A stretch of 64,000 nt of DNA. Source: the human T2T-CHM13v2.0 reference genome, Homo sapiens. Positions within the stretch are counted from its first letter, which is position 1, and the number at the start of each line of letters is the position of its first letter. Where the stretch lies: the NCBI RefSeq assembly GCF_009914755.1, contig NC_060930.1. One strand, given 5' to 3'. The translations under genes were made by a program, and so were the position numbers. Positions 4,820 through 20,800 of this stretch are shown piece after piece. The notes under the pieces were generated by a model. That model made no database searches. It saw nothing but the letters and a program-made list of their open reading frames with translations, and was not told the DNA's origin.

Positions 4820-7483
4820 CGGATGAAGCCCACTTGATCATGGTGGATAAGCTTTTTGATGTGCTGCTCTATTCGCTTTGCCAGCATTTTATTGAGGATT
4901 TTTGCATCGATGTTCATCAGGGATATTTGTCTAAAATTCTCTTTTTTTGTTGTATGTCTGCCAGGCTTTGGTATCAGGATGACGCTGGCCTCATAAAATG
5001 AGTTAGGGAGGATTCCCTCTTTTTCTATTGATTGGAATAGTTTCAGAAGGAATGGTGACAGCTCCTCCTTGTACCTATGGTAGAATTCGGCTGTGAATCC
5101 ATCTGGTCCTGGACTTTTTTTGGTGGGTAAGCTATTAATTATTGCAAGGCTGGTTCAACATATGCAAATCAATAAACCCAATCCAGCATATAAACAGAAC
5201 CAATGACAAAAACCTCATGATTATCTCAATAGATGCAGAAAAGGCCTTTGACAAAATTCAGCAACCTTCATGCTAAAAACTGTCAATAAATTTGGTATTG
5301 ATGGGACGTATCTCAAAATAAGAGCTATCGATGACAAACCCACAGCCAATATCATACTGAATGGGCAAAAACTGGAAGCATTCCCTTTGAAAACTGGCAC
5401 AAGACAGGGATGCCCTCTCTCACCACTCCTATTCAACATAGTGTTGGAAGTTCTGGTCAGGGCAATCAAGCAGGAGAAGGAAATAAAGGGTATTCAGTTA
5501 GGAAAAGAGGAAGTCAAATTGTCCCTGTTTGCAGATGAAATGATTGTATATCTAGAAAACCCCATTGTCTCAGCCCAAAATCTCCTTAAACTGATAGGCA
5601 ACTTCAGCAAAGTCTCAGGATACAAAATCAATGTGCAAAAATCACAAGCATTCTTATACACCAACAACAGACAAACAGAGAGCCAAATCATGAGTGAATT
5701 CCCATTCACAATTGCTTCAAAGAGAATAAAGTACCTAGGAATCCAACTTAAAAGGGATGTGAAGAACCTCTTCAAGGAGAACTACAAACCACTGCTCAAT
5801 GAAATAAAAGAGGATACAAACAAATGGAAGAACATTCCATGCTCATGGGTAGGAAGAATCAATATCGTGAAAATGACCACACTGCCCAAGGCAATTTAGA
5901 GATTCAATGCCATCGCCATCAAGCTACCAATGACTTTCTTCACAGAATTGGAAAAAATTACTTTAAAGTTCATATGGAACCAAAAAAGAGCCTGCATTGC
6001 CAAGTCAATCCTAAGCCAAAAGAACAAAGCTGGAGGCATCACGCTACCTGACTTCAAACTATACTACAAGACTACAGTAACCAAAACAGCATGGTACTGG
6101 TACCAAAACAGAGATATAGATCAATGGAACAGAACAGAGCCCTCAGAAATAATGCCGCTTATCTACAACTATCTGATCTTTGACAAACCTGACAGAAACA
6201 AGAAATGGGGAAAGGATTCCCTATTTAATAAATGGTGCTTGGAAAACTGGCTAGCCATATGTAGAAAGCTGAAACTGGATTCCTTCCTTATAACTTATAC
6301 AAAAATTATTTCAAGATGGATTAAAGACTTACATTTATTTAGACCTAAAACCATAAAAACCCTTGAAGAAAACCTAGGCAATATGATTCAGGACATAGGC
6401 ATGGGCAAGGACTTCATGTCTAAAACACCAAAAGCAATGGCAACAAAAGCCAAAATTGACAAATGGGATCTAATGAAACTGAAGAGCTTCTGCACAGCAA
6501 AAGAAACTACCATCAAAGTGAACAGGTGACCTACAGAATGGGAGAAAATTTTTGCAATCTACTCATCTGATAAAGGGCTAATATCCAGAATCTACAATGA
6601 ACTCCAACAAATTTACAAGAAAAAAACAAACGACTCTATCAAAAAGTGGGCAAAGGATATGAACAGACACTTCTCAAAAGAAGACATTTATGCAGCCAAA
6701 AAACACATGAAAAAATGCTCATCATCACTGGCCATCAGAGAAATCCAAATCAAAACCACAATGAGATACCATCTCACACCAGTTAGAATGGCAATCATTA
6801 AAAAGTCAGGAAACAACAGGTGCTGGAGAGGATGTGAAGAAATAGGAACACTTTTACACTGTTGGTGGGACTGTAAACTAGTTCAACCATTGTGGAAGTC
6901 AGTGTGGTGATTCCTTAGGGATCTGGAACTAGAAATACCATTTGACTCAGCCATCCCATTACTGGGTATATACCCAAAGGAATAAAAATCATGGTGCTAT
7001 AAAGACACATGCACATGTATGTTTACTGCAGCAATATTCACAATAGCAAAGACTTGGAACCAACCCAAATGTCCAACAATGATAGACTGGATCAAGAAAA
7101 TGTGGCACATATACACCATGGAATACTATGCAGCCATAAAAAATGATGAGTTCATGTCCTTTGTAGGGACATGGATGAAGCTGGAAACCATCATTCTCAG
7201 CAAACTATCGCAAGGACAAAAAACCAAACACCACATGTTCTCACTCATAGGTGGGAATTGAACAGTGCGAACACATGGACACAGGAAGGGGAACATCACA
7301 CACCAGGGCCTGTTGTGGGGTGGGAGAAGTGGGGAGGGATAGCATTAGGAGATATACCTAATGCTAAATGACCAGTTAATGGGTGCAGCACACCAACATG
7401 GCACATGTATACATATGTAACAATCCTGCATGTTGTGCACATGTACCCTAAGACTTAAAGTATTATAATTAAAAAAAAAAAAA
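4820..7483 (+). mobile_element. 5'-truncated, 5'-inverted (twin-primed) L1PA4-like LINE-1
   Basis: Inverted ORF2 piece 4820-5145 (-), then sense ORF2 3' half 5143-7261, 3'UTR and poly(A); degenerate TSD aacaatgctg (4810-4819) / aagagtgctg (7482-7491). Confidence 0.92.
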
Positions 7484-7886
7484 GAGTGCTGAATATTGGC
7501 CCCTACTCTCTTCTGGCTTGTAGGGTTTCTGCAGAGAGACCTGCTGTTAGTCTGATGGTTTCCCTTTGTGGGTAACCCAGCCTTTCTCTCAGGCTGCCCT
7601 TAACATTTTTTCCTTGATTTCAACCTTGGTGAATCTGATGCTTATGTGTCTTGTGTTTGCTCTACTCGAGGAGTATCTTTGCGGTGTTCTCTGTATTTCC
7701 TGAATTTGAATGTTGGTCTGCCTTGCTAGGTTGAGGAAGTTCTCCTGGATAATCTCCTGAAGAGTGTTTTCCAACTTGGTTCCATTCTCCCCATCACTTT
7801 CAGGTACAGCAATCAAACATAGATTTGGTCTTTTCACATAGTCCCATATTTCTTGGAGGCTTTGTTCATTTCTTTTTACTCTTTTT

Positions 7887-8180
7887 TTTTTTTTTTTTTG
7901 AGACAGAGTCTCGCTTTGTTGCCCAGGCTAGAGTGCAGTTACGTGATCTTGGCTCACTGCCAGCTCCCCCTCCTGGGTTCATGCCATTCTTCTGCCTCAG
8001 CCTCCTGAGTAGCTGAGACTATAGGTGCCCACCACCACACCCGGCTAATTTTTTGTATTTTTAGTAGCGATGGGGTTTCACTGTGTTAGGCAGGATGGTC
8101 TTGATCTCCTGACCTCATGATCCTCCCGCCTCGGCCTCCCAAAGTGTTGGAATTACAGGTGTGAGCCACCGCACCCGGCC
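7887..8180 (-). mobile_element. AluY-like SINE within L1 ORF1
   Basis: Dimeric Alu with poly(T); TSD tttactctttttt on both sides. Confidence 0.93.
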
Positions 8181-17819: not shown

Positions 17820-17882
17820 AGACCATCGAGACTAGGAAGAAACTGCATCAACTAATGAGCAAAATAACCAGCTAACATCATA

Positions 17883-20800
17883 ATGACAGGAGCAAATTCA
17901 CACATAACAATATTAACTTTAAATGTAAATGGACTAAATGCTCCAATTAAAAGACACAGACTGGCAAATTGGATAAAGAGTCAAGACCCATCAGTGTGCT
18001 GTATTCAGGAAACCCATCTCACGTGCAGAGACACACATAGGCTCAAAATAAAAGGATGGAGGAAGATCTACCAAGCAAATGGAAAACAAAAAAAGGCAGG
18101 GGTTGCAATCCTAGTCTCTGATAAAACAGACTTTAAACCAACAAAGATCAAAAGAGACAAAGAAGGCCATTACATAATGGTAAAGGGATCAATTCAACAA
18201 GAAGAGCTAACTATCCTAAATATATATGCACCCAATAAAGGAGCACCAAGATTCATAAAGCAAGTCCTGAGTGACCTACAAAGAGACTTAGACTCCCACA
18301 CATTAATAATGGGAGACTTTAACACCCCACTGTCAACATTAGACAGATCAACGAGACAGAAAGTCAACAAGGATACCCAGGAATTGAACTCAGCTCTGCA
18401 CCAAGCGGACCTAATAGACATCTACAGAACTCTCCACCCCAAATCAACAGAATATACATTTTTTTCAGCACCACACCACACCTATTCCAAAATTGACCAC
18501 ATACTGGGAAGTAAAGCTCTCCTCAGCAAATGTAAAAGAACAGAAATTATAACAAACTATCTCTCAGACCACAGTGCAATCAAACTAGAACTCAGGATTA
18601 AGAATCTCACTCAAAACCGCTCAACTACATGGAAACTGAACAACCTGCTCCTGAATGACTACTGGGTACATAACGAAATGAAGGCAGACATAAAGATGTT
18701 CTTTGAAACCAATGAGAACAAAGACAAAATATACCAGAGTCTCTGGGACGCATTCAAAGCAGTGTGTAGAGGGAAATTTATAGCACTAAATGCCCACAAG
18801 GGAAAGCAGGAAAGATCCAAAATTGACACCCTAACATCACAATTAAAAGAAATAGAAAAGCAAGAGCAAACACATTCAAAAGCTAGCAGAAGGCAAGAAA
18901 TAACTAAAATCAGAGCAGAACTGAAGGAAATAGGGACACAAAAAACCCTTCAAAAAATTAATGAATCCAGGAGCTGGTTTTTTGAAAGGATCAACAAAAT
19001 TGATAGACTGCTAGCAAGACTAATAAAGAAAAAAAGAGAGAAGAATCAAATAGACACAATAAAAAATGATAAAGGGGATGTCACCACCGATCCCACAGAA
19101 ATACAAACTACCATCAGAGAATACTACAGACACCTCTACGCAAATAAACTAGAAAATCTAGAAGAAATGGATAAATTCCTCGACACATACACTCTCCCAA
19201 GACTAAACCAGGGAGAAGTTGAATCTCTGAATAGACCAATAACAGGAGCTGAAATTGTGGCAATAATCAATAGCTTACCAACGAAAAAGAGTCCAGGACC
19301 AGATGGATTCACAGCCGAATTCTACCAGAGGTACAAGGAGGAACTGGTACCATTCCTTCTGAAACTATTCCAATAAATAGAAAAAGAGGGAATCCTCCCT
19401 AACTCATTTTATGAGGCCAGCATCATTCTGATACCAAAGACAGGCAGAGACACAACAAAAAAAGAGAATTTTAGACCAATATCCTTGATGAACATTGATG
19501 CAAAAATCCTCAATAAAATACTGGCAAAACAAATCCTGCAGCACATCAAAAAGCTTATCCACCATGATCAAGTGGGCTTCATCCCTGGGATACAAGGCTG
19601 GTTCAATATACACAAATCAATAAATGTAATCCAGCATATAAACAGAGCCAAAGACAAAAACCACATGATTATCTCAATAGATGCAGAAAAAGCCTTTGAC
19701 AAAATTCAACAATCCTTCATGCTAAAAACTCTCAATAAATTAGGTATTGATGGGACGTATCTCAAAATAATAAGAGCTATCTATGACAAACCCACAGCCA
19801 ATATCATACTGGATGGGCAAAAACTGGAAGCATTCTCTTTGAAAACTGGCACAAGACAGGGATGCCCTCTCTCACCACTCCTATTCAACATAGTGTTGGA
19901 AGTTCTGGCCAGGGCAATTAGGCAGGAGAAGGAAATAAAGGGTATTCAATTAGGAAAAGAGGAAGTCAAATTGTCCCTGTTTGCAGACAACATGATTGTA
20001 TATCTAGAAAACCCCATTGTCTCAGCCCAAAATCTCCTTAAGCTGATAAGCAACTTCAGCAAAGTCTCAGGATACAAAATCAATGTACAAAAATCACAAG
20101 CATTCTTATACACCAACAACAGACCAACAGAGAGCCAAATCATGAGTGAACTCCCATTCACAATTGTTTCAAAGAGAATAAAATACCTAGGAATCCTACT
20201 TACAAGGGATGTGAAGGACTTCTTCAAGGAGAACTACAAACCACTGCTCAAGGAAATAAAAGAGGATACAAACAAATGGAAGAACATTCCATGCTCATGG
20301 GTTGGAAGAATCAATATCGTGAAAATGGCCATACTGCCCAAGGTAATTTAGAGATTCAATGCCATCCCCATCAAGCTACCAATGACTTTCTTCACAGAAT
20401 TGGAAAAAATTACTTTAAAGTTCATATGGAACCAAAAAAGAGCCCGCACCGCCAAGTCAGTCCTAAGCCAAAAGAACAAAGCTGGAGGCATCACACTACC
20501 TGACTTCAAACTATACTACAAGGCTACAGTAACCAAAACAGCATGGTACTGGTACCAAAACAGAGATATAGATCAATGGAACAGAACAGAGCCCTCAGAA
20601 ATAATGCTGCATATCTACAACTATGTGATCTTTGATAAACCTGAGAAAAACAAGCAATGGGGAAAGTATTCCCTATTTAATAAATGGTGCTGGGAAAACT
20701 GGCTAGCCATATGTAGAAAGCTGAAACTGGATCCCTTCCTTACACCTTATACAAAAATCAATTCAAGATGGATTAAAGACTTAAACATTAGACCTAAAAC

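What the first reader, a model, noticed from the sequence alone, without database searches (positions are those of the whole stretch)
5897..20410. Two L1s of different subfamilies share the same nonsense mutation: local gene conversion
Seen: the nested L1PA4-like copy and the L1PA2/3 copy both carry ORF2 Tyr>TAG (5897-5899; 20349-20351) and, 59 nt downstream, ACT>ATT giving EKITLK (5958; 20410). Both pairs have the same 14,452-bp offset. The older minus-strand L1 in the window keeps TAT and C at these sites. Established: L1 acts in cis, so two insertions of different age are unlikely to inherit an ORF2 stop from active parents. Inference: a >=60-bp non-allelic gene-conversion tract between tandemly oriented neighbours spread an inactivating mutation. 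One mismatch inside the tract (catcgcc vs catcccc) would have to be later.
Basis: partly seen in the sequence, partly recalled or inferred. Interest (0 to 1): 0.7.

Follow-up and report, generated by a model that had tools for sequence, protein, structure and literature searches.

The report
Neighbouring LINE-1 copies swap mutations
Two separately inserted LINE-1 retrotransposon copies 14.5 kb apart share two rare mutations, likely because a short stretch was copied from one into the other by gene conversion, a known process; rare LINE-1 mutations are shared between nearby copies across the genome, so this pair is an ordinary example.

Summary
Observation confirmed. TAG (5897-99; 20349-51) and ATT (5958; 20410) each occur in about 0.7% of L1PA copies. 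Only these two copies carry both among 51 near-matches. The copies are independent insertions, 93.8% identical, each with its own target-site duplication. Short non-allelic gene conversion is the best explanation (~0.88), probably from the older fragment into the younger full-length copy (inferred).

'Spread an inactivating mutation' is overstated: the fragment is 5'-truncated, and the full-length copy has an earlier ORF2 stop and a later frameshift. Direct orientation is not needed: the fragment also shares a very rare stop-creating CA>TG (11 hits) with its inverted host L1.

The pair is typical. For 11 rare variants (425 carriers, window pair removed), same-allele pairs within 100 kb number 26 against about 1 expected. 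At least 20 of the 26 have unrelated flanks. Distance-dependent conversion is described for Alu, LTRs and paralogues generally; I found no L1-specific account in the library searched. Unexplained: TAG clusters more than the other variants. Ape orthologues and long reads could not be checked.

The parts
517..9635 (-). Copy C: older, near full-length L1 (recalled markers L1PA6-8-like), interrupted by copy A and by an Alu-like insert at about 7880-8181
   Evidence: self-BLAST against copy B in pieces 517-4819, 7482-7887, 8181-8763, 8893-9635; 90-91% identical to A and B
4820..7481 (+). Copy A: 5'-truncated L1 (L1PA4/5-like by recalled markers) with inverted 5' piece 4821-5145, nested in C; 10-bp target-site duplication 4810-4819 / 7482-7491 with two mismatches
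5893..5992 (+). Maximal candidate conversion tract in A (minimum 5899-5958); TAG 5897-5899, ATT T5958, A-only G5915
   Evidence: alignment; bounds are the flanking A/B mismatches 5892 and 5993 (the latter a CpG site, so a soft bound)
6517..6546 (+). Second shared tract, A with C: CA>TG at 6527-6528, turning ORF2 Gln CAA into TGA
   Evidence: (11 hits genome-wide, two of them A and C)
1441..1470 (-). Partner of the CA>TG tract in copy C (inverted relative to A, about 5 kb away)
15897..21930 (+). Copy B: full-length L1 (L1PA2/3-like by recalled markers); ORF1 open 16803-17819 (338 codons); ORF2 from 17883 with stops at 19374 and 20349 and a 5-bp deletion near 20826
   Evidence: closest panel copies 97.4%
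20345..20444 (+). Maximal candidate conversion tract in B (minimum 20351-20410); TAG 20349-20351, ATT T20410
21931..23042 (+). About 1.1-kb 3' transduction of B ending in a second A-rich tail; sequence belongs to a family of at least 39 other 95-98% copies
15884..15896 (+). Left target-site duplication of B (13 bp)
23043..23055 (+). Right target-site duplication of B, after the transduction

Best explanation
Two independently inserted L1 copies share a unique two-mutation haplotype, likely because a short (60-100 bp) non-allelic gene-conversion event copied it from one into the other after both were in place. Shown: both alleles are rare, only these two copies were found with both, and the copies are separate insertions of different age. 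Inferred: a germline break or nick in one copy was repaired on the neighbour 14.5 kb away without crossover. The donor was probably the older fragment A (about 0.8): it carries 47 rare non-CpG alleles in the overlap against 20 in B, and had longer to gain two. G5915 probably arose in A afterwards or was left by patchy repair. The event is probably neutral, as A is truncated and B has other ORF2 lesions.
For: Rarity and exclusivity. Independent insertions: own target-site duplications, different 5' structure, 93.8% identity, and B's transduction comes from elsewhere. Neighbour exchange is frequent in this family. Same-allele pairs: 8 against 0.12 expected within 20 kb, 26 against 0.96 within 100 kb, falling to 1.3-fold at 1-3 Mb, with different-allele pairs as the density control. 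Without the TAG variant: 17 against 0.77. Of the 26 pairs, 20 have unrelated 3' flanks, 2 look like duplications and 4 are unresolved. 6 of 8 sequenced close pairs share a further rare allele within 200 bp, against 166 of 3,338 distant pairs. L066/L067 (92 kb apart, different 3'UTR markers and flanks) have 1 mismatch in a 600-bp core and 1.5-7% divergence in the bins from 21000 on. A shares a second, rarer allele with inverted host C. Distance-dependent conversion is in print for Alu (PMC6598467, PMC8230782) and for paralogues generally (10.64898/2026.08.26.747289).
Against: Only two informative sites. There is one mismatch inside the tract (G5915) and another 7 bp upstream of the TAG. The A/B pair shares no other panel-rare non-CpG allele in 2,331 bp. 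The site was picked after the fact, and a loose null gives up to 0.7% per pair, so some chance pairs are expected genome-wide. B's parent could not be read: no second L1-tail/transduction junction was found at <=2 mismatches, and the five best transduction paralogues have no L1 at the junction. Direction and date are not shown. No second haplotype, ape genome or read data were available.
Confidence: 0.88

Rival explanations
1. Transfer at the moment of B's insertion: B's nascent cDNA briefly used the nearby copy A (DNA or RNA) as template. The outcome equals conversion but is tied to retrotransposition.
For: Both alleles probably arose in A (inferred). The later mutation inside the tract fits an old event.
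Against: The tract is internal, 1.5 kb from the 3' end, and needs two switches. The same signature occurs between many pairs of old copies, including A with its older host C.
Confidence: 0.04
2. Two independent recurrent mutations happened to fall in both copies.
For: Each allele recurs in at least 63-66 copies. TAG is several times commoner than the two other weak-to-strong transversions tested (13 and 18 hits). The case was selected after the fact.
Against: About 5e-5 per copy under independence; at most 0.7% per pair under a loose empirical null. For a single shared allele within 100 kb, chance accounts for about 1 of 26 pairs.
Confidence: 0.04
3. Both copies inherited the alleles from a defective sub-lineage mobilised in trans.
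For: B's parent is absent from the places checked, so it cannot be excluded directly.
Against: A and B differ at 6% of sites and at age markers, and share no other rare allele. No third double carrier among 51 near-matches or 60 fetched loci. TAG carriers span young and old marker groups.
Confidence: 0.02
4. Assembly or polishing mixed reads of the two copies.
For: Not tested; no reads or second assembly were available.
Against: The alleles are nearly private, so mixing would have had to overwrite one copy at just two sites while leaving a mismatch between them. The same signature recurs at 20 or more other pairs.
Confidence: 0.02

Closest known systems
Non-allelic gene conversion between neighbouring Alu elements (Aleshin and Zhi 2010, as summarised in PMC6598467 and PMC8230782; the original was not held)
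   Same: Detected by shared non-diagnostic mutations between nearby copies; falls with distance.
   Different: Here the elements are L1PA. The excess reaches 100-1,000 kb (12-fold at 50-100 kb, 4-5-fold at 0.2-1 Mb), whereas the Alu range is given as about 10 kb. Pairs beyond 100 kb were mostly not flank-checked.
Genome-wide ectopic gene conversion, Steyaert 2026 preprint (10.64898/2026.08.26.747289; abstract, part 2 of Results and term search seen; supplements closed)
   Same: [quoted passage not shown]
   Different: It uses polymorphisms and de novo mutations; the main text has no 'LINE-1', 'Alu' or 'transposable'. It reports GC bias, which my small sample did not show (weak-to-strong 4 of 31, strong-to-weak 19 of 162).
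Conversion among human LTRs (PMC4921805, search listing; summarised in PMC6598467) and in segmental duplications (10.1101/135152, PMC10172114; search listings only)
   Same: Short tracts carrying clustered derived alleles between paralogues.
   Different: Those concern LTRs or long duplications; here the partners are independently inserted 90-95% identical LINEs.
L1 3' transduction and twin-priming 5' inversion (recalled)
   Same: B carries a 1.1-kb 3' transduction inside its target-site duplication; A has an inverted 5' piece.
   Different: Nothing unusual; they serve here as proof of independent insertion.

Membership tests
Non-allelic gene conversion between transposable-element copies | Derived alleles shared by two paralogues and rare elsewhere in the family | tested here: met
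Non-allelic gene conversion between transposable-element copies | Partners are independent insertions, not a duplication | tested here: met
   separate target-site duplications and structures, 93.8% identity
Non-allelic gene conversion between transposable-element copies | Sharing confined to a local tract | tested here: met
   two alleles within 59 bp, none elsewhere in 2,331 bp
Non-allelic gene conversion between transposable-element copies | Tract more identical than background | tested here: inconclusive
   1 mismatch in 100 bp, but longer identical runs exist elsewhere
Non-allelic gene conversion between transposable-element copies | Frequency falls with distance | tested here: met
   67-, 75-, 12-, 11-, 4-, 5- and 1.3-fold over seven bins; the two shortest bins rest on one control pair each
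Non-allelic gene conversion between transposable-element copies | Non-reciprocal transfer shown by outgroup or second haplotype | not testable with these tools
   no relatives held for G000 (header)
GC-biased gene conversion | Weak-to-strong alleles spread more than strong-to-weak | tested here: inconclusive
   4 of 31 against 19 of 162 carriers clustered; TAG (mixed T>G and C>G) 24 of 62 is an outlier
Trans-mobilised defective L1 sub-lineage | Several dispersed copies share the haplotype and other private alleles | tested here: not met
L1PA2/3 (B) and L1PA4 (A) subfamilies | Diagnostic positions against subfamily models | not testable with these tools
   no Dfam or Repbase library; relative ages B<A<C supported by panel markers and identity; names recalled

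The most novel reading that the evidence does not exclude
Primate L1PA copies routinely convert one another over tens to hundreds of kilobases, ten times the range reported for Alu and in either orientation. About one rare variant in 17 has been copied into a neighbour, this ORF2 stop codon spreads locally more readily than other alleles, and dead old fragments can write stop codons into young full-length neighbours, as A may have done to B. This would be an undescribed route of L1 inactivation and a bias in L1 dating and phylogeny.
Probability: 0.3. Interest if true: 0.58.

Novelty: new member of a known kind. Interest (0 to 1): 0.33.

Why it matters
The single locus matters little: it is a probably neutral event between two broken L1s. 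The wider pattern matters more. If nearby L1 copies exchange short tracts as often as searches suggest, L1 copies do not age independently. Shared rare variants then mislead source-element tracing and subfamily trees, and a dead copy could in principle disable a young neighbour. The same-allele against different-allele distance test used here makes this directly measurable on any complete genome.

Tried and rejected
1. Identity runs as evidence: rejected, because longer runs occur without rare alleles.
2. Reading B's parent through its 3' transduction: 40 of 1,927 candidates were scored. The five best paralogues lack an L1 at the junction and the junction pattern hit only B, so the parent was not found; the other scored paralogues were not opened.
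3. GC bias as the reason TAG clusters: not supported by two other weak-to-strong variants (small numbers).
4. Segmental duplication as the cause of genome-wide clustering: rejected for 20 of 26 pairs, 2 duplication-like, 4 unresolved.
5. Loss of a splice-acceptor-like AYAG as a selective cause of TAG clusters: considered and set aside, because 8 of 14 TAG pairs under 200 kb are in opposite orientation.
6. TAA carriers beside TAG clusters (C18, C23): within the different-allele background, not pursued.
7. Literature: searches listed no paper devoted to conversion between neighbouring L1 copies; one search returned only unrelated papers among the 30 of 57 listed. Passages seen in PMC13192797, PMC7980453 and PMC5237266 mention conversion only in passing; PMC13192797 has a recombinant screen whose results I did not read. 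Older reports of single L1 conversion events are recalled, not checked.
Rows dropped: 7 near-identical duplicate loci and 3 loci that are the window's own copies from the panel (83 rows kept); the window's own 3 hits from the clustering test; 2 unlisted of 102 hits.
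Full report
Anatomy. The window holds three L1s that overlap in ORF2. C is an older, near full-length minus-strand copy (517-9635). A (4820-7481) is a plus-strand, 5'-truncated copy with an inverted 5' piece, nested in C with a 10-bp target-site duplication. B (15897-21930) is full length with an open ORF1 and an ORF2 broken at 19374, 20349 and by a later 5-bp deletion. B's 13-bp target-site duplication closes only at 23043-23055, so B carries a 1.1-kb 3' transduction. 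Identities are A-B 93.8%, A-C 91.0%, B-C 90.4%. 3'UTR markers rank B youngest and C oldest; subfamily names are recalled.

Observation. TAG and ATT are present as described. The TAG 27-mer has 63 hits against 9,002 for TAT/TAC. The ATT 29-mer has 66 hits, about 0.7% if the two sites have like denominators (exact-match rates 15 of 28 and 29 of 52). The tool calls such counts lower bounds. Of 51 hits to the 72-nt tract at one mismatch, only A and B carry both alleles; of the 60 fetched single-allele loci, only the window's own copies do. Chance is about 5e-5 per copy, or at most 21 of 2,941 pairs under a loose empirical null. A and B share no other panel-rare non-CpG allele, so the sharing is local and not a common lineage. 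The tract lies between mismatches at 5892 and 5993, with G5915 inside it; its identity alone is unremarkable.

Second event in the window. A and its inverted host C share four panel-rare bases. One pair, CA>TG at 6527-6528, turns Gln into TGA and has 11 hits genome-wide, two of them A and C. The other two (B coordinates 19991 and 20692) were not counted genome-wide, and 19991 has a discordant base 3 bp away.

Is neighbour exchange common? I listed carriers of 11 rare alleles at six ORF2 sites, removed the window's own hits, and compared distances between same-allele and different-allele carriers among 425 hits. Within 20 kb: 8 same-allele pairs, 0.12 expected. Within 100 kb: 26 against 0.96. 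The excess is 11-fold at 100-200 kb, 4-5-fold at 0.2-1 Mb and 1.3-fold at 1-3 Mb. An independent density estimate from the first 100 ancestral rows (0.82 neighbours within 100 kb of about 9,000 copies) agrees with the control rate. Without TAG the count is 17 against 0.77. Pairs within triples are not independent. Flank checks: 6 pairs and 14 of 18 have unrelated sequence after the L1 tail; 2 look duplicated (C19, C20); 2 and 2 others (L007/L008, L017/L018; 94.6% and 94.8% identical, different structure) were not resolved by flanks. Of 8 close pairs with sequence, 6 share a further rare allele within 200 bp, against 166 of 3,338 distant pairs. L066/L067 show a long near-identical core between copies with different markers and flanks. 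Of 35 same-allele pairs under 200 kb, 13 are inverted. At this background, 2 of about 49 rare alleles of A being found in B is typical.

Mechanism. Shown: rarity, exclusivity, independent insertion, local sharing, and a family-wide distance-dependent excess. Inferred: non-crossover repair on a nearby homologous L1; donor A, because it has 47 rare alleles in the overlap against 20 in B and is older; G5915 later or patchy repair. The attempt to read B's parent failed: the transduced sequence matches at least 39 other 95-98% copies, the best five are empty sites, and the junction pattern hit only B. Whether TAG was B's first lesion is unknown. It has no consequence in truncated A.

Against and unexplained. 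Two sites only, post hoc selection, no outgroup or reads. GC bias was not seen (4 of 31 against 19 of 162). TAG clusters more than the other alleles (11 of 49 lineages against 19 of 343, Fisher p=0.0003 uncorrected). Part of this is expected from choosing the site because of a clustered pair, but alleles 14-15 bp away do not show it.

Known work. Conversion between TE copies, stronger within about 10 kb for Alu, is reviewed in PMC6598467 (parts 1-2 of 4 read) and PMC8230782 (passages). A 2026 preprint shows genome-wide ectopic conversion decaying mainly between 100 kb and 10 Mb, with GC bias, and does not name L1 in its main text (supplements not seen and may bear on this). Searches listed no L1-neighbour study, but the library lacks most subscription papers.

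Verdict. A real and probably neutral conversion tract: a new instance of a known process. Interest 0.33, carried mostly by the family-wide pattern.

Noticed in passing
window 21931-23055: Copy B carries a 1.1-kb 3' transduction from a multi-copy duplicated family (best match G000:C16:52255792-52256852, 98%); the source L1 was not found at the five best paralogues or by junction pattern.
   Followed up: yes
window 6527-6528 and 1459-1460: A and its inverted host C share CA>TG (Gln to TGA), 11 hits genome-wide: a probable second conversion, again a stop codon.
   Followed up: yes
L066 / L067 (G000:C5:60125131 and 60217493): Core of 600 bp with 1 mismatch and 12 shared rare alleles overall between two L1s 92 kb apart with different 3'UTR markers and flanks: a much clearer conversion tract than the window's.
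   Followed up: partly
L010 / L011 (G000:C3:70045168 and 70054109): Two L1s 9 kb apart, 96.6% identical, with 18 shared rare alleles spread over 2.4 kb but unrelated 3' flanks: repeated or long conversion, or sibling insertions side by side.
   Followed up: partly
L017 / L018 (G000:C3:146680380 and 146772514): Five extra shared rare alleles in three separate spots between copies 92 kb apart (94.8% identical): possibly several conversion events.
   Followed up: partly
G000:C18 (13.2-13.5 Mb, 49.3-50.0 Mb), C8:63.2 Mb, C3:70.0-70.8 Mb, C23:80.1-80.2 Mb: The TAG allele forms clusters of 3-4 copies and is over-represented on C18 (7 of 63, three more); unexplained.
   Followed up: partly
G000:C2:160577299-160610832: Three L1s 16-17.5 kb apart with unrelated flanks share one rare C>A allele.
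   Followed up: partly
window 46316-46898: Long purine-rich (GAAG-type) low-complexity tract, about 580 bp.
   Followed up: no
window 15553-16818: The two RefSeq enhancer rows overlap the 5'UTR of copy B, and the row at 8776-9277 overlaps the 5' region of copy C.
   Followed up: no
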